Shown: positions 43,578-51,040 of the stretch, in pieces | Layout of the letters: the number at the start of each line of letters is the position of its first letter | Position numbering within the stretch: the first letter of the stretch is position 1 | Virus record (IMG/VR): IMGVR_UViG_3300032676_000934 | Coordinates: 3,388 to 67,387 of that record | Strand: one strand, 5' to 3' | Source: a virus | Length of the DNA stretch: 64,000 bases | Notes under the pieces: generated by a model | Database searches by the model: none | The model's input: only the letters and a program-made list of their open reading frames with translations | Told to the model about the DNA's origin: nothing | Program-made: the position numbers and the translations under genes

Positions 43578-43935
43578 ACAAGCTTGGCTCGGCTTGATGG
43601 TGCTGCTGGGGTGTGAACTGCCGCCGGAGGCCATGGCCATCGCTCTCGCCATGCCACGCGTCTCTGAGCGGATCTTCCCGTTCAATACGGACGCGGTGTC
43701 GGCCTCGTTCACCCGAGCGTGCGCATTCCTCGGCATTGAGGATCTCCACTTCCATGACCTCAGACATGGAGGGATCACACGCCTTTTCGAGATGGGGCGC
43801 ACACTGCCTCTCGTCGCATCCGTCAGTGGCCACCGCTCCTGGCAAAGCCTCAAGCGCTACACCCACCTCAATCACAAGGGCGACCGGTTCGCCGGCTGGC
43901 CTTGGCTGAAGGTCGTTACCGAACCAGAGGCTTAA
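43570..43935 (+). pseudogene. Tyrosine integrase C-terminal remnant
   Basis: LHFHDLRH...SGHRSW..LKRY (box II and catalytic Tyr) only; no N-terminal domains or first catalytic Arg. Confidence 0.8.
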
Positions 43936-44310
43936 TCACTCCGGCTCCTCTCCGGGGTCGCTAGCGATGGCATCGTAAGCCTGCCCGCCGATCCGATCGG
44001 CAATGTCATCGTCGGCGATGCCTTCGACCTTCACCTCCAGCGTTATCCGGCCGCCTTCAGCGCGAGCCATCGTAAGGGCTTCGTAGAGCTTGTTGGCCGC
44101 GTCTCGCATGTCCTGAACGGCAGCAGGGTCGGCAGGCGTGTCTAGCCCAGGCGGCCGAAGGGTGCGTTCAAGGCGCGCCACGATTTCCGCGTTCATGCTG
44201 CGCTTGTTCGCCTTCGCCGCCTCGGCGAGCAAATCCCGCATGCCGTCAGGCAGCCGGACGAGGAACTTGTCGGCCTGTTCGCTTGGGTACTCGGATCGAG
44301 GTTTACGCAT
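43936..44310 (-). CDS. Arc/Mnt-family repressor
   Basis: [15 protein letters not shown]...[13 protein letters not shown]. Confidence 0.85.
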
Positions 44311-44319
44311 GAGGGCGCG

Positions 44320-44393
44320 CCATAGCACGTCGCTATGGAGCTTGACACGGCGGCGAGTCGATATGTAGAACTCCATAGCGGCTTGCTATGGAG
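44320..44393. promoter_or_regulatory. Divergent promoter with two palindromic operators
   Basis: CCATAGC-N5-GCTATGG at 44320-44338 and 44373-44391; TTGACA at 44342. Confidence 0.75.
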
Positions 44394-44398
44394 AGAAC

Positions 44399-44650
44399 AT
44401 GCCTCGCCCACGCTATCCCAGCGATGATGTCGACAAGCTGATGCTGCGGTTCCCGGCAGGGCTTCGCCCCCGGCTTGAACAGCGGGCGAAAGCAAACCTG
44501 CGATCGATGAATAGCGAGGTCGTCATGATCCTCGCGACGGCACTCGGAGCCGAAAGCAAGGAGACGACGACGGGGGTGCAGTTTGGCGACCCATCCCCCG
44601 CCGCCGCGCACGAAGCCGCCCGCAAGGGCGATCCCGTCACCCACGGCTAG
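44399..44650 (+). CDS. Arc-family regulator
   Basis: DKLMLRFPAGLR..L...A..N.RSMNSEVV. Confidence 0.85.
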   Translation: MPRPRYPSDDVDKLMLRFPAGLRPRLEQRAKANLRSMNSEVVMILATALGAESKETTTGVQFGDPSPAAAHEAARKGDPVTHG

Positions 44651-44659
44651 GAGCCGCAG

Positions 44660-45409
44660 ATGAGCAACGATAGCACGAACGGCAGCCTGACGCCCTTCAA
44701 TTTCGAGGGCGCGCCGGTTCGCGTCGTCCAGATTGACGGCGAACCTTACCTCGTCGGCAAGGATGTGGCCGAGCGCCTGGGTTACGCAGACGCAACGACA
44801 GCGATCCGGTCGCACTGCCGTGGGGTGCAAAAGCTGCACCCCATCCCCGATAGCCTTGGCCGCGTTCAGGAAGTTCGCGTTCTCTCCGAACCTGATGTGC
44901 TTCGGCTGATCGTCAAGAGCAACCTGCCGGCCGCCGAGCGCTTTGAACGCTGGGTCTTTGAGGAGGTTCTGCCGACGATCCGGAAGACCGGACGGTATGG
45001 CGCGGCCGATCCGATGGCCGCCTTGAATGACGCGGCATCGCTGCGCACCCTGCTTCTCGCCTCCGCGGAGCGCGAACTGACGCTTCAGGCAAAGATCGAG
45101 GCCGACAAGCCCAAGACCGGCTTCTTCGATCGCTTCATGAACGCGGACGGCCTTTTCGGCCTCCAGAATGCCGGCCGGATCTTGATTGAGCCGCCCAACA
45201 AGTTCGTCGGCTGGCTGAAGCAGCAGTTCCTCTTCTACCAAGGCGGGTCGCTCGTCCCCCGCGCGCAGTACCGCACAATGGGGATCTTTGAGGTCAAGGC
45301 GACGGTCGTAGACGACAAGGCCCGCTATCAGACCTACGTCACGCCGAAGGGCCTTCAGTACCTCGCCAAGAAGCTCGGCAAGAGCATCCCCGGACTGGAG
45401 GAGGCATGA
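44660..45409 (+). CDS. ant: Antirepressor (Bro-N plus KilAC)
   Basis: F.FEG..VRVV..DGEP...GKDVA..LGY; FERWVFEEVLPTIRKTG.Y; QTYVTPKG. Confidence 0.88.
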   Translation: MSNDSTNGSLTPFNFEGAPVRVVQIDGEPYLVGKDVAERLGYADATTAIRSHCRGVQKLHPIPDSLGRVQEVRVLSEPDVLRLIVKSNLPAAERFERWVFEEVLPTIRKTGRYGAADPMAALNDAASLRTLLLASAERELTLQAKIEADKPKTGFFDRFMNADGLFGLQNAGRILIEPPNKFVGWLKQQFLFYQGGSLVPRAQYRTMGIFEVKATVVDDKARYQTYVTPKGLQYLAKKLGKSIPGLEEA

Positions 45410-46568: not shown

Positions 46569-46756
46569 CCCCGCCTAGCCTTTCTGCGCAAATAGGAGAG
46601 AAGCGATGAGCGAGGAGACGCCCCGGCGGTTCAAGGGTGCTGCGCATCGCTGCGCGACTTCGCCCTTGAGCCGCCAAAGCTTACGGCCGGTAGTGGTTTT
46701 CATAGAGCCGCGGCAACACCTGAGCACCTCAGGTGCTCTAATCATGGAGCACTGAG

Positions 46757-47038
46757 ATGGATATCGGCTATCCATTAATACTGATATCTGGGATAGCAAT
46801 CGGTTGGGGCTTCACACAATTTTATTGGGAGCGCCGAGAACTACGCACAGCAAAAGCCTCTCAAGATCAGGGAGAGCGGGCATTTGAGCGATCGGCTCAG
46901 ATCGCCGAAGCCTGGAGATGCGAAGTCACAGGACCTTACGACGCCCCGCAAAATGTTCGAGAGCGCATCGAGCGCCAGAACAAGGTTGCTTGCGAGATAG
47001 CCGCTGCAATCCGGGCAGAAATTGGGGGAAGACGTTGA
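46757..47038 (+). CDS. Hypothetical membrane-anchored protein
   Basis: N-terminal hydrophobic helix; ..EIAAAIR C-terminus. Confidence 0.5.
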   Translation: MDIGYPLILISGIAIGWGFTQFYWERRELRTAKASQDQGERAFERSAQIAEAWRCEVTGPYDAPQNVRERIERQNKVACEIAAAIRAEIGGRR

Positions 47039-47039
47039 A

Positions 47040-47402
47040 ATGAAGCATGGGCACCAACCCACCGTTAGAAATCACGAACGTCCAGATCCGCCCACTACAG
47101 GAAGTGCTGTCGTGCCTCCAAAGACTTCGTGGAATTGCGCGGCACGCAAGCAAGGTACGGCCGGTGGCAATGATCCTGCTGATTGCGACTGGCCGGTCTG
47201 CGGCTGCGATCCTTACGCGGACAAGGTCATTGCCGCGCTTCAAGACGCCGGAGTCATTGTTGCCGCACCCGGCTGGAAGCTGGTTCCCGCCCGACCCACG
47301 GAAGCGATGATCAAGGCCGCGGGAAGCGAATGGGTGCTCGAACGCCTTTGGCGAGCGATGCTTGCGGCCGCGCCAAATCCTACGGGAGGCGACGCTAAGT
47401 GA
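47040..47402 (+). CDS. Hypothetical protein
   Basis: PADCDWPVCGCDP and GWKLVP..PTEAM..A modules. Confidence 0.55.
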   Translation: MKHGHQPTVRNHERPDPPTTGSAVVPPKTSWNCAARKQGTAGGNDPADCDWPVCGCDPYADKVIAALQDAGVIVAAPGWKLVPARPTEAMIKAAGSEWVLERLWRAMLAAAPNPTGGDAK

Positions 47403-47679
47403 GCGGCCCCTTGGATCAACGAACCGCCACATCCGGCGAGGCACTAACAGATGGGATGATAGGGGTCGGGACAGCGGTGCCTCCTGAAAATGGACTGATC
47501 GAATTTTCGTGTGCGAGCCGCACGAGAATTTTCGAACCTTGACGGTGCGGAATACGCAGATCGCTTGCTTTCGGCCTTGAGAACGCGATGTCGGCGGCGT
47601 TGCCCGAACCGCGCCCAGCCGCCTTCGGACCTAAAATGGGGCATTCCGCCTCGATTTTAGGTTCAGGTGAGACAGCGCA

Positions 47680-48705
47680 ATGTACTATGTCGGCCTCGAC
47701 CTCGGTCTCAAGAAGACCGCCGTGTGTATCGTTGACGAAGACGATAAAATTATTCGCAGGGGCGATATTGATAGTGAGCCAGAAGCCATCGCGCTCTGGC
47801 TGTACGAGCAGAAGCTGACCTACAAACGCGTCGGCCTGGAGTCGGGCATGATGCATGAGTATATTTATTTCGGCCTCGTGAAGGCCGGGTATCCGGCCAT
47901 CGTCATCAACTCGGCCGACTCGCGGAACTTCCTCAAGAACAAGATCAACAAGACGGATAAGTCTGACGCGCATGGCATCGCCCGCATGATGCGGATGAAG
48001 CACTACCGCGAGGTCTACGTGAAGACGGAGGAGAGCAGGCGCCAGAGGGCGCTGCTCGCATCGCGCAAGTTGGCCATCGCCAAGATGCGGGACACTGAGA
48101 CCCACATCCGCGGGATCATTCGTCACTTCGGGTTCAAGCTTGGCAAGGTCACGAGAAAGCAGTTCGAACCTCGCGTCCGTGAACTCATCGAGCATGATGC
48201 CATGCTAATGGCGACCGTAGAGCCGATGCTGGCCTTGGCTCGGGCGGCGCGGGAACAGGCGAACACCCTGACCCGGCAGGTGTTGGCCATCGTCAGAGCC
48301 TGTCCCGTCTGTCAGATCCTGATCACGTGCCCTGGGGTCGGTCCCATTGTGGCGCTGATGTTCAAGACCACCATTGACCTGCCGACCCGGTTCCGGAACG
48401 CCAAGGCAGTCGGTGCGGCAGTGGGATTGACCCCGCGACGGTGGGAGTCAGGCGACACGAAGCGCATGGGCCGGATCTCCAAAATTGGAGACGAAGAGCT
48501 TCGCACCAGCCTATTTGAAGGCGCCCAGGCGTTCCTGGCGATGAACAAGAGGCCGTGCTGGCTGCACACTTGGGCGCAGGAACTGAAGGAGAAGAAGGGG
48601 CACTACAAGGCGGTCATTGCGCTTGCCCGCAAGATCGCGATGGTCCTATACATTCTGTGGATCGAGATGCGGCCGTTCCGTTGGGACGATCAGCCCGTAG
48701 CTTGA
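47680..48705 (+). CDS. IS110-family DEDD recombinase/transposase
   Basis: GLD, VGLESG, KTDKSDA (DEDD); PGVG, GLTPRRWESG (catalytic Ser), GRISKIG; intact 341 aa. Confidence 0.95.
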   Translation: MYYVGLDLGLKKTAVCIVDEDDKIIRRGDIDSEPEAIALWLYEQKLTYKRVGLESGMMHEYIYFGLVKAGYPAIVINSADSRNFLKNKINKTDKSDAHGIARMMRMKHYREVYVKTEESRRQRALLASRKLAIAKMRDTETHIRGIIRHFGFKLGKVTRKQFEPRVRELIEHDAMLMATVEPMLALARAAREQANTLTRQVLAIVRACPVCQILITCPGVGPIVALMFKTTIDLPTRFRNAKAVGAAVGLTPRRWESGDTKRMGRISKIGDEELRTSLFEGAQAFLAMNKRPCWLHTWAQELKEKKGHYKAVIALARKIAMVLYILWIEMRPFRWDDQPVA

Positions 48706-48712
48706 TCACGAG

Positions 48713-48902
48713 CTTCCGCCGTTGAGGCGGGAGGTGTCCGTCAAGGACCGAGGGGTTGGTTGGTTCCGGGTCTTACCTTGCAGGGGCATCCGCCTGCTGC
48801 GTCTAACAGATTGGAACACCAACTCGCGGATACCCATCTTGGAGCAGGTTCGCCCTGGCTCCGTAAGCAAGAGCGCAGTCCCTGACGTGATGACTACCTT
48901 CC
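48713..48902 (+). ncRNA. Bridge RNA/seekRNA
   Basis: 5' hairpin, basal stem and two looped arms containing CTAACAGA/TCTTACCTT and CCCATCTTG/AAGCAAGA. Confidence 0.75.
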
Positions 48903-49146
48903 TCAACTTCGATCAGTTCGAAAGGCGGTAACGACGCAGATGCGTTGAACGAGATCCCCTCAAGGGGAGCACCTTCGGTGTGCCGTTAAATACGTTGGCC
49001 CGCGCGAGTGGGAGCCGTAGATGAGATTGGCAGCCGTACTTTTTATGATCGCCCGACGCTCGGGTAGTTCAAGGACGCTTCGCGCCGCTGCGCGGTAAAT
49101 CCTTGAGCTACCCGAGCTTACGGCCGTTCCTGCTCGGCATGGGTTG

Positions 49147-49467
49147 CTAAGGCGGGGTACTGCCTTCCGCTCTGAAGATAATTCGGTTGGCCTGATCGAC
49201 CGGACCGTCTGGGACGAAAGTCCCGTGCTCGTAGACGGCTTCGACCAACTCTTTAAGTGCGGTCAGAAGTTCGGGTGCGGCGGCGATCAGCCGGGCATTG
49301 GCTCTCGCCTCCTCCAGCGTTGCCGTCATCGCATTACCCATGAACGCCACGGTGATCGTGGCCGGGTGATCGCAGGAGACAGTCACATCCGCCGGACGCG
49401 GAATGGAAGCGATGGCTGGATCTGTAAAGTCGTGGACGAACCAAGGTCCACGGGTAAAGGCGGCCAT
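49147..49467 (-). CDS. Cargo: conserved phage hypothetical protein
   Basis: FTRGPW...ANARLIAAAPELL; GGAGGA RBS. Confidence 0.7.
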   Translation of the reverse strand: MAAFTRGPWFVHDFTDPAIASIPRPADVTVSCDHPATITVAFMGNAMTATLEEARANARLIAAAPELLTALKELVEAVYEHGTFVPDGPVDQANRIIFRAEGSTPP

Positions 49468-49473
49468 TCGAAA

Positions 49474-49548
49474 TCCTCCAATCCGATACCGTATTGCAGC
49501 CTAATCCGGTATCGGATAGCTTGCAACAAGCGGTATCGGATTGGAGGA
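49474..49548. promoter_or_regulatory. Palindromic divergent control region
   Basis: Perfect 18-bp IR TCCTCCAATCCGATACCG / CGGTATCGGATTGGAGGA with central ATCCGGTATCGGATA. Confidence 0.75.
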
Positions 49549-49553
49549 CGAAA

Positions 49554-49772
49554 ATGACGGACCACAAGAGCGTAGATACCCTTGGAGATGCGCTTCCTCG
49601 CGAGATGACGCGAGTTCGTGAATTGATCCCGCGGTACGAGAGCGTTCCCATGGGCGGGTTGGCCGCCAACATGATGCGGCACTCGCTGGACCGAGCGCAG
49701 ATAGCCCTCGCTCACGGTGACGTGGTGGCGATGATCCGCTGTTACAAAGACCTCAAGGGTTACGAGGCGTGA
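49554..49772 (+). CDS. Cargo: small hypothetical protein
   Basis: GGAGGA RBS; LGDALP.E..RVRE...GDVVAMIR.Y.DLK. Confidence 0.7.
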   Translation: MTDHKSVDTLGDALPREMTRVRELIPRYESVPMGGLAANMMRHSLDRAQIALAHGDVVAMIRCYKDLKGYEA

Positions 49773-49804
49773 CGCCAGATCCGGTATCGGATACGGCCGC
49801 ACGC

Positions 49805-49981
49805 ATGCCGAAAGAGAAATTCCCTGACGTGATGACGATCCGCCTCCGCGAGGGGACGTTCAAGCGCATCGACGCGATCACCGATCCGAACAAGCGCGGG
49901 GAGTGGATCAGGGACCTGATTGAGCGCGAACTGAAGCGCGAGCGACCGCGTAAGCCGGGCTCAGCGTCGAGCGTGTCATGA
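49805..49981 (+). CDS. Cargo: ribbon-helix-helix regulator
   Basis: MTIRLREGTFKRIDA....RGEWIRDLIERELKR. Confidence 0.7.
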   Translation: MPKEKFPDVMTIRLREGTFKRIDAITDPNKRGEWIRDLIERELKRERPRKPGSASSVS

Positions 49982-50532
49982 CCCCTATCAAGCAAGAGGA
50001 GATCGCTGCGGCGATTGAGGCGCTGGTCTTCTCGTCCTACTCGCACGGCCTCGGGGTCGGAGACGGCACGCTGAGCCAAATGGAGCCTCGCCGCTCCGCA
50101 GAGGCTCGTTTAGCCCTCACCGCCGCGATCCTATCCCGTCTCTCTGCCGCCGAGGCCGGGAGAGAGGCGCACCGAGAGCAGCTACAAGAAGCGCTGGACG
50201 AAATTGACCGGCTAAACGACCCGACGCTCAAGCACATGCGGCTGGAGAACGGCGAGATCAATATGGCCGTCGCCGGGCCGATGGTCGAGCGCTTGGCTCT
50301 GGCAATGACCGCCTGGTTCCGGGAGAGCGGCGCCGAGAACTACGTCGAGATGAACCTCAACGCGCGGGACAATTCGGACGACCGCTACTGCGTCACGGTG
50401 CAGAAGGTGTGGGCGAAGTCGCCTCACCAACTCCGTGCCGAAGCTGAAGCCGCCCGCGACTCCGCCCTTCGAGAACGAGACGAACTAGCTCACCGGCTGA
50501 AAGCGCTGGAGGCGAGTCATGAACGTAGCTGA
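49978..50532 (+). CDS. Hypothetical coiled-coil protein interrupted by the IS
   Basis: In frame with the 47399-47451 fragment across the empty site; present ATG lies in the IS right end. Confidence 0.65.
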   Translation: MTPIKQEEIAAAIEALVFSSYSHGLGVGDGTLSQMEPRRSAEARLALTAAILSRLSAAEAGREAHREQLQEALDEIDRLNDPTLKHMRLENGEINMAVAGPMVERLALAMTAWFRESGAENYVEMNLNARDNSDDRYCVTVQKVWAKSPHQLRAEAEAARDSALRERDELAHRLKALEASHERS

Positions 50533-51040
50533 AAAGTTCTGGAGCAAGGTCAAGCGAAGTGATGACTGCTGGGAGTGGCAGGGAGGAAAGTCACCTCTCG
50601 GGTATGGAAGAGTACGACATGAAGGTAAGGATTGGTTCGCGCATCGAGTGGCTTATTATTTGATTTATGGCGTCCATCCAGGGAACCTGAGCGTTTGCCA
50701 CAAATGCGATAACCCACCCTGCGTTCGCCCGGACCATTTGTTTCTAGGGACTCGTCACGACAACATGATGGACTCGGCAAGAAAGGGCCGTAACGCGATG
50801 CAGCGGTACCCAGAAAAGAACCCGCTCATCCTCAAGATAGCAAGCCAAACTCATTGCAAACGCGGGCATCCGCTGAGCGGCGACAACCTCTATCAAGGGA
50901 GGCGCACAAATCCTCGTCGCGAATGCTTAGCTTGCAAGCGAATGCGCGACCGCTCTGACAAATCGCAGGCGGCACATCGGGCGCGTAGAGCCGCCCGAAG
51001 GATCATAGCTTGTGTGGCCGTGGAGCATGCAAATGGCTGA
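50519..51040 (+). CDS. HNH homing endonuclease
   Basis: FWSKV..DCWEW, AHRVAY, VCHKCDNPPCVRPDHL.LGT..DN; THCKRGH. Confidence 0.88.
   Translation: MNVAEKFWSKVKRSDDCWEWQGGKSPLGYGRVRHEGKDWFAHRVAYYLIYGVHPGNLSVCHKCDNPPCVRPDHLFLGTRHDNMMDSARKGRNAMQRYPEKNPLILKIASQTHCKRGHPLSGDNLYQGRRTNPRRECLACKRMRDRSDKSQAAHRARRAARRIIACVAVEHANG

What the first reader, a model, noticed from the sequence alone, without database searches (positions are those of the whole stretch)
47449..49997. Bridge-RNA recombinase unit whose programmed ends enclose three phage-like cargo genes
Seen: the RNA region after the IS110 gene contains AAGCAAGA (48865-48872), identical to 49990-49997. It also contains CCCATCTTG (48833-48841), complementary to CAAGATGGG, the sequence formed when 49997 is joined to 47452 (the circle junction). 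Both ends carry an AGA core and 11-bp sub-terminal inverted repeats (15 of 17 when extended). The right end therefore lies about 1.1 kb beyond the RNA, enclosing 49147-49467, 49554-49772 and an RHH regulator. Known: IS1111-type elements have sub-terminal IRs and a downstream bridge/seekRNA with target and donor loops, and excise as circles. Inference: an RNA-guided excisable cassette moving a self-regulated phage gene module, either a cargo-carrying IS or a recombinase adopted by the phage.
Basis: partly seen in the sequence, partly recalled or inferred. Interest (0 to 1): 0.9.

Follow-up and report, generated by a model that had tools for sequence, protein, structure and literature searches.

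The report
RNA-guided insertion sequence carrying phage genes
A jumping gene of the IS1111 type, which uses its own small RNA to recognise its ends and its landing site, sits inside a gene of a bacterial virus and carries three small virus-type passenger genes just inside its right end; natural cargo-carrying relatives were described in a 2026 preprint.

Summary
An IS1111-type element occupies 47451-49996 (2,546 bp). It has a 341-aa DEDD recombinase gene and a downstream seekRNA/bridge RNA at 48706-48897. A covariance model built only from 34 distant relatives finds that RNA at E 1e-9. The 11-bp sub-terminal inverted repeats lie at homologous offsets.

All four guides sit in the columns where relatives' guides covary with their flanks. 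LTG, RDG and LDG match this copy's left flank, left end and right end. The core is AG, not AGA.

An unrelated isolate assembly (run X4) holds the same 43-nt right end, stopping at 49996. Its flank GTAAG fits the fourth guide (RTG). The phage's own right flank fits it at only 3 of 7 positions.

An 812-bp passenger (49141-49952) lies 44-45 bp inside the right end. It has a phrog_1273 gene, a four-operator palindromic region, a phage-type 72-aa gene and a CopG-like RHH gene. Another virus carries the operator-orf72-RHH module without any IS.

Relatives are about 1.43 kb and lack such cargo. The insertion splits a phage gene in frame. Movement of the loaded element was not shown. A 2026 preprint reports natural cargo-bearing IS110 elements, so this is a new member of a known kind.

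The parts
47399..47450 (+). 5' stump of the interrupted phage gene. Its GTG start overlaps the stop of the upstream gene. It holds the left target word CTAAC (47444-48) and the core AG (47449-50).
   Evidence: The computed join with 49997 onward gives an open 195-codon frame. Homologues have Leu-Pro-Glu-Glu-Ile where the join gives Leu-Thr-Glu-Glu-Ile.
47451..49996 (+). Whole IS1111-type element, 2,546 bp.
   Evidence: The left end is homologous to the relatives' left end. The right end is bounded by run X4's loose end at 49996.
47457..47467 (+). Left sub-terminal inverted repeat TGATAGGGGTC.
   Evidence: It sits at the same place as the relatives' repeat after the conserved AGATGGG.
47680..48705 (+). 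DEDD recombinase (transposase), 341 aa, with the GL-P----SG motif.
   Evidence: Pfam PF01548 at 7.6e-16 and PF02371 at 3.1e-19. NCBIfam NF033542 at 223 bits against a cut-off of 140. Translation.
48706..48897 (+). seekRNA / bridge RNA with a target loop and a donor loop.
   Evidence: Model R1, built from 34 relatives only, gives 39.7 bits, E 1.1e-9, full length.
48770..48780 (+). Right-target guide (RTG), 5' side of the target loop. It predicts core AG plus GTAAGAC.
   Evidence: It lies in the column that covaries with the right flank in relatives. It fits X4's flank GTAAG. It fits the phage flank at 3 of 7.
48803..48811 (+). Left-target guide (LTG), CTAAC plus AG plus AT.
   Evidence: Identical to 47444-52. 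Its column covaries with the left flank in relatives.
48833..48841 (+). Right-donor guide (RDG), complementary to the core plus the left end.
48865..48873 (+). Left-donor guide (LDG), identical to the right end plus the core.
   Evidence: The geometry matches the relatives: last base of the repeat, then 7 nt, then 1.
48898..49140 (+). Extended 3' non-coding part. It includes a long hairpin (49055-49126) that also occurs in the phage at 46617-46689.
   Evidence: Contigs of X4 and X5 continue from the RNA to 49098 and 49091 with 1-2 differences.
49141..49952 (.). Passenger segment, 812 bp.
   Evidence: An X5 contig joins 49140 to 49953, but its shorter side is only 25 letters and the letters between are not known. 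In X4, 255 unlike letters precede 49954.
49147..49467 (-). orf106, a phage-family protein of unknown function.
   Evidence: phrog_1273 at E 1.9e-13.
49474..49548 (.). Palindromic divergent control region with three operator copies. A fourth copy is at 49779-92.
   Evidence: 7 strand matches against 0.37 expected.
49554..49772 (+). orf72, a small helical phage-type protein.
   Evidence: Its Atlas look-alike clusters are 76-89% viral. A homologue stands in the same order in L084.
49769..49981 (+). CopG-like ribbon-helix-helix protein. An alternative start is the ATG at 49802. Its last 9 codons and stop are supplied by the IS right end.
   Evidence: The family profile hits CopG regulator 7by2_A at E 1.2e-5. 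6 of 16 family members hit Pfam RHH_1. The window's own protein hits nothing alone.
49953..49996 (+). Right end, with the repeat GACCCCTATCA at 49980-90 and AGCAAG after it.
   Evidence: X4 holds 49954-49996 between unlike DNA on both sides.
49978..50532 (+). Phage gene re-started from an ATG inside the IS right end. Six IS-encoded codons are followed by the native frame.

Best explanation
This is an IS1111-type insertion sequence at 47451-49996. Its DEDD recombinase works with a seekRNA/bridge RNA encoded just downstream of the gene.

The RNA has two internal loops. In the donor loop, RDG pairs with the core plus the left end, and LDG matches the right end plus the core. The right end lies 1.29 kb after the stop codon, so the element recognised by its own RNA includes an 812-bp passenger placed 44-45 bp inside that end. 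In the target loop, LTG reads CTAAC plus the core AG, and RTG reads AG plus GTAAG.

The expected cycle is excision as a circle that joins right end to left end at the AG core, followed by RNA-guided insertion at a CTAAC-AG-GTAAG type site. This cycle is inferred from the family and was not observed here.

This copy sits in the 5' end of a phage gene. There only the left half of the site fits the guides. An ATG in the IS right end re-starts the gene in frame.

The passenger is a phage accessory module: orf106, a divergent operator region, orf72 and a CopG-like RHH that probably represses its own module. Other copies of the same IS carry other DNA in that slot.
For: Family:
- Pfam and NCBIfam name the recombinase.
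- It has 341 aa and the motif GL-P----SG. It also has sub-terminal repeats, a downstream non-coding region, and the top-strand guide 5' of the bottom-strand guide. These are the IS1111 features described in Siddiquee 2024. Guide naming follows Durrant 2024.

RNA:
- A model made from 34 relatives without the window finds 48706-48897 at 39.7 bits, E 1.1e-9, over the full model.

Guide columns validated in relatives:
- RTG against the right flank: 7/7 in 34, 6/7 in 15 and 5 or fewer in 3 of 52. The mean is 6.60 against a permuted mean of 5.21 (maximum 5.69 in 2,000 permutations).
- LTG against the left flank: 5/5 in 22, 4/5 in 8 and 3 or fewer in 12 of 42. The mean is 4.12 against 2.45 (maximum 2.98).

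Window:
- LTG, RDG and LDG each match as 9-mers.
- The best inverted repeat pairs 47457-67 with 49980-90.
- End geometry equals that of the relatives.

Independent copy:
- Contigs of run X4, an isolate from another study, hold 47576-49098 with 0-2 differences per contig.
- X4 also holds 49954-49996 between unlike DNA on both sides. The letters after 49996 begin GTAAG, as RTG predicts.

Slot:
- In X4, 255 unlike letters precede 49954.
- In X5, a contig joins 49140 to 49953.

Cargo origin:
- phrog_1273, viral look-alikes and the RHH family.
- The operator-orf72-RHH module stands in virus record L084. That record has no match to the recombinase and no R1 hit.

Insertion:
- The computed join gives a 195-codon open frame whose junction resembles the homologues' LPEEI.
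- An X5 contig of the left flank (46710-47450, 49 differences in 741) ends exactly at 47450, and an IS contig starts at 47443.

Experimental precedent:
- A 745-bp cargo placed 46 bp from the ISEc11 right end still moved.
Against: - No circle junction, no empty site of this very phage and no second location of the loaded element was seen.
- All laid runs are contigs, which drop rare variants.
- The X5 joint across the cargo has only 25 letters on its shorter side, was called at 90% likeness, and the letters between are 'not known'. The tool warns that such joints are weak.
- In X4, the recombinase-RNA contigs and the right-end contig are not physically linked.
- RTG fits the phage's right flank at only 3 of 7 positions. 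Only 3 of 52 relatives fit that badly (5 or fewer of 7). So this junction is either a half-match insertion or a later rearrangement.
- 58 of 63 relatives end 255-300 nt after the stop and none has non-IS cargo. A degenerate end-like word lies at the homologous inner position, 48952-64 (read by eye).
- 9-mer recurrences between the RNA and downstream DNA are common.
- The window's RHH protein matches no family on its own, and its model is of low confidence at pLDDT 68.
Confidence: 0.78

Rival explanations
1. Short IS plus trapped phage DNA. The working element is recombinase plus RNA and ends at an inner, now decayed end near 48950-49140. The outer end is a leftover of another copy or a surrogate end. 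The three genes are ordinary phage genes caught in between and do not travel.
For: 58 of 63 relatives end 255-300 nt after the stop, with a median element of 1,435 bp. A word resembling the right repeat plus TCAAG lies at 48952-64, the homologous distance (by eye). The cargo module is native to another virus that has no IS. The preprint reports that large IS110 loci mostly move as partial segments.
Against: The inner word needs indels and shares only 5 nt with LDG. LDG and the perfect 11-bp repeat point to 49980-96. Contigs of X4 and X5 run unchanged through the inner site to 49098 and 49091. X4 has the outer end with a flank that fits RTG. The reading frame is restored only across 47450/49997.
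Confidence: 0.12
2. The right junction is secondary. The IS first entered a cognate CTAAC-AG-GTAAG site. A later deletion or end-driven recombination at the right end then brought the 184-aa gene next to it, and the in-frame re-start was selected afterwards. This concerns history and is compatible with the best explanation of what the element is.
For: RTG fits the phage flank at 3 of 7, while 49 of 52 relatives fit at 6 or more of 7. X4 shares 46 nt of left flank (47405-47450) but has a GTAAG right flank. An X5 contig reads from 47450 through GTA into other phage DNA (window 46706 onward), that is, CTAACAG followed by GTAAG without the IS.
Against: The join across the IS gives Leu-Thr-Glu-Glu-Ile where three homologues have Leu-Pro-Glu-Glu-Ile, after N-terminal extensions of similar length. 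This is expected if the left flank is the gene's own start. Half-match boundaries are reported as the most enriched configuration at expanded IS110 loci. In relatives, 12 of 42 left flanks fit LTG at 3 or fewer of 5.
Confidence: 0.3
3. The phage has adopted the recombinase and its RNA for a purpose of its own, such as switching or moving the module. It is not a parasitic IS.
For: The insertion keeps the downstream gene translatable, and the RHH reading frame runs into the right end.
Against: Copies of recombinase gene and RNA differing by 0-8 letters per contig occur in an isolate and in a leaf metagenome from other studies, while the phage flank there differs at 49 of 741 positions. The ATG in the right end is also present in X4, where it opens only a short frame (by eye). 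No RHH operator lies near the recombinase gene.
Confidence: 0.04

Closest known systems
IS1111-family insertion sequences with seekRNA (ISEc11, ISKpn4, ISPa11; Siddiquee et al. 2024, PMC11187229; abstract and sections 6, 9, 10, 11, 13 read)
   Same: Shared features: a DEDD recombinase of 330-350 aa with GL-P----SG, sub-terminal inverted repeats, and the long non-coding region downstream. In the RNA the top-strand match is 5' of the bottom-strand match. In ISEc11 an engineered 745-bp cargo placed 46 bp from the right end was moved. Here a natural 812-bp cargo sits 44-45 bp from the right end.
   Different: Here the cargo is natural and phage-derived, and the host replicon is a phage. The 3' non-coding part is extended by about 240 nt. 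One target half-site does not fit. Movement was not tested.
Expanded cargo-bearing IS110 elements (Hu et al., bioRxiv 10.64898/2026.08.14.744561; abstract, sections 5 and 9 and searched passages read)
   Same: The preprint describes natural elements larger than about 1.5 kb with multi-gene cargo, extended 3' non-coding regions homologous to nearby DNA, half-matches between guide and boundary, and part of the captured DNA matching phage references.
   Different: That work stresses plasmid-derived DNA and resistance genes. The word IS1111 occurs 0 times in its main text. Its supplements could not be seen, so a like element may be listed there. Here the element is small (2.5 kb), of IS1111 type, and lies in a virus genome.
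IS621 bridge RNA system (Durrant et al. 2024, PMC11208160; searched passages read)
   Same: Two loops, four guides (LTG, RTG, LDG, RDG), and a core dinucleotide that is included in the pairings.
   Different: Here the RNA lies 3' of the gene, the guide order in each loop is reversed, the core is AG instead of CT, and sub-terminal repeats are present.
ISPpu9 modular circles (Pares-Guillen et al. 2025, PMC12288879; abstract only)
   Same: An IS110-family element with an extra module downstream of the recombinase gene. Alternative circles form with or without that module.
   Different: The ISPpu9 module is a small-RNA gene. Here it is three protein genes, and no circles were observed.

Membership tests
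IS1111 family (within IS110 sensu lato) | DEDD/RuvC-like N-terminal domain plus PF02371 C-terminal domain | tested here: met
   PF01548 at 7.6e-16 and PF02371 at 3.1e-19. NF033542 at 223 bits against a cut-off of 140.
IS1111 family (within IS110 sensu lato) | Recombinase of 330-350 aa with the motif GL-P----S(t)G | tested here: met
   341 aa. Residues 249-258 read GLTPRRWESG. G249, L250, P252, S257 and G258 are invariant in 11 homologues.
IS1111 family (within IS110 sensu lato) | Sub-terminal inverted repeats a few bases inside both ends | tested here: met
   11 bp perfect, 15 of 17 extended. The left repeat starts 6 nt inside the left end and the right repeat ends 6 nt inside the right end. 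The placement is homologous to the relatives' repeats.
IS1111 family (within IS110 sensu lato) | Long non-coding region downstream of the gene that encodes the seekRNA | tested here: met
   R1 hit at 48706-48897, directly after the stop at 48705.
IS1111 family (within IS110 sensu lato) | In the RNA, the match to the top strand lies 5' of the match to the bottom strand | tested here: met
   RTG at 48770-80 precedes LTG at 48803-11. RDG at 48833-41 precedes LDG at 48865-73.
IS1111 family (within IS110 sensu lato) | Both target guides match the flanks of the copy | tested here: not met
   Left flank 5 of 5 plus core. Right flank 3 of 7. The flank of the copy in run X4 does fit. This feature concerns this one insertion, not the element's family.
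IS1111 family (within IS110 sensu lato) | Excision as a circle and RNA-dependent insertion | not testable with these tools
   Only contigs could be laid. No circle joint was listed.
Cargo-bearing (expanded) IS110 elements | Non-IS genes lie between the two ends that the element's own donor guides recognise | tested here: met
   RDG and LDG match 47449-55 and 49990-98. Three ORFs lie between the RNA and the right end. None is a transposase.
Cargo-bearing (expanded) IS110 elements | The same loaded element occurs in two contexts, or a whole-element circle exists | tested here: inconclusive
   X9 holds the same phage, so it is not independent. X4 and X5 hold the IS with other DNA in the slot.
CopG/Arc/MetJ ribbon-helix-helix regulators (cargo gene 49769-49981) | Sequence or profile match to RHH families | tested here: met
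   Only at family level. The profile of 16 sequences hits 7by2_A at 1.2e-5 and 6iya_A at 0.0022. 6 of 16 members hit RHH_1, best 5.7e-4. The window protein alone gave 0 hits.
CopG/Arc/MetJ ribbon-helix-helix regulators (cargo gene 49769-49981) | Strand-helix-helix fold | tested here: inconclusive
   The model has pLDDT 68 and pTM 0.31, with two helices at 30-37 and 43-57 after an extended stretch. No fold search was run.

The most novel reading that the evidence does not exclude
This IS1111 lineage acts as an RNA-guided shuttle for phage accessory modules. Its guides are written for a short word at a conserved gene boundary of a group of mosaic phages (CTAAC, AG, GTAAG). The slot 44-45 bp inside its right end takes up and swaps phage modules: different contents in this phage, in run X4 and in run X5. 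Half-site recognition lets the loaded element land in related but non-identical boundaries. Bridge-RNA recombination would then be one of the engines of module exchange between phages.
Probability: 0.2. Interest if true: 0.7.

Novelty: new member of a known kind. Interest (0 to 1): 0.42.

Why it matters
This is a compact natural example in which the anatomy of an RNA-guided IS can be read almost completely from sequence: four guides, an AG core, both ends, and an extended 3' region. The element's own donor guides enclose foreign genes.

The passenger sits almost exactly where a laboratory cargo was shown to be tolerated in ISEc11. The host replicon is a virus, so the element and its load can travel between cells in a capsid.

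It gives a small, testable system (2.5 kb, known cognate and non-cognate sites) for two questions. Can IS1111-type elements move natural cargo? How much of the target must match?

It does not open a new category, because natural cargo-bearing IS110 elements were reported in a 2026 preprint.

Tried and rejected
- Rfam holds no family for this RNA. One search gave only three sub-threshold chance hits (mir-932 on the operator palindrome, and two others).
- Close DNA relatives were not found in GenBank phages. In plasmids there were 3 weak hits on the recombinase gene only. By tblastn in phages the best recombinase match was 34%.
- Scans for relatives of the recombinase found nothing in genome contigs or viral contigs. 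Relatives of the 184-aa protein were not found in viral contigs.
These would be the best test of cargo variation.
- orf106 by tblastn and the orf72-RHH DNA by blastn found nothing in phages. The 184-aa protein found only a 34% partial match in a Bordetella phage.
- An exact 17-nt right-end word found one viral contig, L085. It is AT-rich and shares nothing else with the window, so it is a chance match.
- Eleven viral loci with a homologue of the upstream 126-aa gene share only a 65-90 nt conserved stretch. They do not hold the target word, so they give no empty site.
- The window holds no further good copy of the ideal 12-nt target (1 match with 2 mismatches, as expected by chance) and no second copy of the left-flank word.
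- The flanks of the 16-nt direct repeat are no more alike than shuffles: 12 of 40 and 18 of 60.
The best hexamer pair across the computed junction is 4 of 6 plus 4 of 6. The scan of the linear region gave 2 sites against 0.8 expected, neither at the ends.
- L029 and L078 looked like cargo-bearing relatives (right end about 1,900 nt after the stop). Their extra gene is a second IS110-family transposase nested in the RNA region, so it is not cargo.
- Parts of the stretch without cover in X4 (49328-49895) and X5 are not used as evidence.

Full report
**Where and what**

The window is part of an IMG/VR virus record of 67,387 bp. The region around the finding looks like the accessory part of a temperate phage. 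It has two divergent Arc-like repressors and a Bro-N/KilAC antirepressor at 43936-45409. Many small ORFs follow, and an HNH endonuclease lies at 50519-51040.

**Check of the observation**

- The right-end word recurs in the RNA region as a 9-mer (48865-73 = 49990-98).
- The left junction also recurs as a 9-mer (48803-11 = 47444-52).
- 48833-41 is the reverse complement of right end joined to left end.
- The 11-bp inverted repeat 47457-67 / 49980-90 is the longest between the left region and everything from 48706 to 50300.

In 20,000 dinucleotide shuffles of the RNA, the three 9-mers appeared 1, 7 and 12 times, and never two together. The same script also shows that 9-mers from the 4 kb downstream recur in the RNA at about a dozen places. 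A single recurrence therefore proves little. The case rests on position and on independent data.

**The recombinase**

The gene at 47680-48705 encodes 341 aa with both IS110-family domains. It passes NCBIfam's cut-off for 'IS110 family RNA-guided transposase'. It has the GL-P----SG motif and the length that Siddiquee et al. give for IS1111-type enzymes.

Its nearest database relatives are 82, 76 and 70% identical.

**The relatives**

Eighty metagenome loci with 42-47% identical enzymes were fetched.
- A right-end motif was found in 63 of 80 loci. In 58 of those 63 the right end lies 255-300 nt after the stop.
- The 48 loci with both ends have a median length of 1,435 bp.
- Two long outliers carry a second, nested IS110-family transposase, not cargo.
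- Four loci with 330 nt or more downstream showed no end motif, and 13 were too short to tell.

**The RNA**

The non-coding DNA after the stop aligns with that of the relatives. A consensus fold of 34 relatives has a long closing stem and two internal loops, and 16 of its 47 pairs show compensatory changes.

A covariance model built from those 34 sequences, without the window, finds 48706-48897 at 39.7 bits, E 1.1e-9, over the whole model. The window's own minimum-energy fold has the same layout.

In the relatives, the 5' side of loop 1 is the reverse complement of the right flank: 7/7 in 34, 6/7 in 15 and 5 or fewer in 3 of 52 loci. The 3' side equals the left flank: 5/5 in 22, 4/5 in 8 and 3 or fewer in 12 of 42 loci. 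Both are far above permuted pairings. Some of the low left-flank values come from my anchoring of the guide.

So the columns are RTG and LTG in the terms of Durrant et al.. Their order is the IS1111 order of Siddiquee et al.. Loop 2 holds RDG and LDG. In the relatives LDG covers the last base of the right repeat, then 7 nt, then 1 flank base. The window shows exactly the same geometry.

**Ends and core**

The left end is homologous to that of the relatives: AGATGGG followed by the repeat. Comparison with other genomes places the crossover after AG.
- An X5 contig of the left flank stops at 47450.
- The copy in X4 stops at 49996.

The element is therefore 47451-49996, and the shared core is AG.

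**Independent copies (contigs only)**

Runs X1-X3 may be the source. X9 holds the same phage at low depth. None of these four is independent.

X4, an isolate from another study:
- It holds the recombinase gene and RNA from 47576 to 49098 in contigs with 0-2 differences each.
- It holds a left flank alike from 47405.
- On a separate contig it holds 49954-49996 between 255 unlike letters before and 232 unlike letters after.
- The letters after begin GTAAG, which is what RTG predicts (core AG plus GTAAGAC).

X5, a leaf metagenome from another study:
- It holds the IS with 0-8 differences per contig.
- It holds the phage's left flank with 49 differences in 741 letters, ending at 47450.
- It has a contig that joins 49140 to 49953. 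This joint is weak: 25 letters on the shorter side, 'between: not known', 90% threshold.
- It has another contig that keeps 49480-49547 and 49802-49938 but skips orf106 and replaces orf72 with 38 letters.
- It has a contig that runs from 47450 through GTA into other phage DNA. That reads as the target word without the IS.

The far right end is therefore real. It is used elsewhere with the cognate flank, and what lies between the RNA and the last 44 nt differs between copies.

**The passenger (49141-49952)**

- orf106 on the minus strand matches phrog_1273, of unknown function, at E 1.9e-13.
- The divergent intergenic region is a near-perfect palindrome. The 14-nt operator word occurs four times, all in the cargo: 7 strand matches against 0.37 expected.
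- orf72 has look-alike clusters that are 76-89% viral.
- The last gene matches nothing on its own. It has 20 relatives in the representative library. 6 of 16 aligned members hit Pfam RHH_1, and their profile hits CopG regulators in the PDB at 1.2e-5. The model has two helices after an extended stretch but is of low confidence.
- Another virus record, L084, carries operator region, orf72 homologue and RHH homologue in the same order. They align with 49465-49935. That record has no IS110 recombinase and no seekRNA, though it is only 61% complete.

The module is thus native to phages and was taken into the IS. The last nine codons of the RHH frame and its stop are supplied by the IS right end.

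**The interrupted gene**

Joining 47450 to 49997 by coordinates gives a 195-codon open frame. It starts at a GTG that overlaps the upstream stop. Three homologues have 10-20 residues before Leu-Pro-Glu-Glu-Ile, and the join gives Leu-Thr-Glu-Glu-Ile after 17 residues.

In the occupied state, an ATG inside the right end re-starts the gene with six IS-encoded residues. X4 has the same ATG, so this is a property of the IS end and not a phage adaptation.

**The misfit**

RTG fits the phage's right flank at only 3 of 7 positions. There are two readings.
- A half-match insertion. The 2026 preprint reports half-matches as the most enriched configuration at expanded IS110 loci.
- A later rearrangement at the right end.

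The GTAAG flanks in X4 and X5, next to the same 46-nt left flank, favour the second. I put the second at about 0.3.

**How it most likely works**

Inferred from the family, not observed here:
- The recombinase bound to the RNA pairs RDG and LDG with the two ends.
- It excises a circle joined at AG.
- It pairs LTG and RTG with a CTAAC-AG-GTAAG type site and inserts there.

Because the donor guides are written for 47451 and 49996, the circle would contain the passenger. The RHH protein most likely represses its own divergent module through the four operators. No operator lies near the recombinase gene.

**Comparison and novelty**

The element meets the IS1111 features I could test (see the membership table). 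Siddiquee et al. moved an engineered cargo placed 46 bp from the ISEc11 right end, and here nature has put one 44-45 bp from the end.

Natural cargo-bearing IS110 elements, extended 3' regions homologous to nearby DNA, and half-matches are described in the preprint of Hu et al.. I saw its abstract, sections 5 and 9 and searched passages.

I found no paper on an IS1111-type element with natural phage cargo inside a phage genome in two searches. That is a weak negative. I class this as a new member of a known kind.

**Limits**

No reads were available, only contigs. No circle, no empty site of this phage and no second site of the loaded element was seen. The closest relatives' DNA could not be reached.

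Noticed in passing
48879-48894 and 49821-49836: An exact 16-nt direct repeat, TCCCTGACGTGATGAC. The first copy is the 3' strand of the seekRNA closing stem. The second encodes Phe-Pro-Asp-Val-Met-Thr at the start of the RHH protein, a motif native to that protein family. The flanks are not alike. This may be a recombination scar of cargo uptake, or a site where the RNA's 5' stem strand could pair with the RHH mRNA. It remains unexplained.
   Followed up: partly
49055-49126 and 46617-46689: A long hairpin element occurs inside the IS 3' region and again in the phage. The copies are 74% alike, with compensatory changes in the stem. X5 depth is high over the phage copy (41.8), so it may be a repeated element of the host or phage group.
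   Followed up: partly
47490-47563: In X4 and X5 a variant of the IS left region replaces these 74 nt, a hairpin-rich stretch, with 35 other letters. The left non-coding part is also about 100 nt longer than in the 42-47% relatives.
   Followed up: no
48952-48964: A word resembling the right repeat plus TCAAG lies where relatives have their right end. It is also a perfect small hairpin (CCCCT..AGGGG). It may be a vestigial inner end.
   Followed up: partly
L004-L083 (metagenome relatives): The relatives mostly sit in a palindromic, REP-like target. ATGTCCGCT lies about 20 nt left of the insertion and AGCGGACAT lies directly to the right. The commonest right flank, CGGACAT, occurs in 24 of 59 loci.
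   Followed up: partly
L029:1738-2961 and L078:1533-2705: A second IS110-family transposase is nested in the seekRNA region of another IS of the family, between RDG and LDG.
   Followed up: partly
43936-45409: An immI-like set: two divergent Arc-like repressors and a Bro-N/KilAC antirepressor.
   Followed up: no
window 46706-47450, as seen in X5: An X5 contig reads from 47450 through GTA back into 46706 (depth 20.6). This suggests a tandem or repeated two-gene unit in a related phage. It also shows the uninterrupted target word.
   Followed up: no
43635-43750 (-): A weak second hit of the RNA model R1 at 12.4 bits, E 0.03, with large deletions. It is probably noise.
   Followed up: no
49134-49144 and 49801-49811: An 11-nt inverted repeat, 91% complementary, pairs the left cargo boundary with the start of the RHH gene. 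Its meaning is unknown.
   Followed up: no
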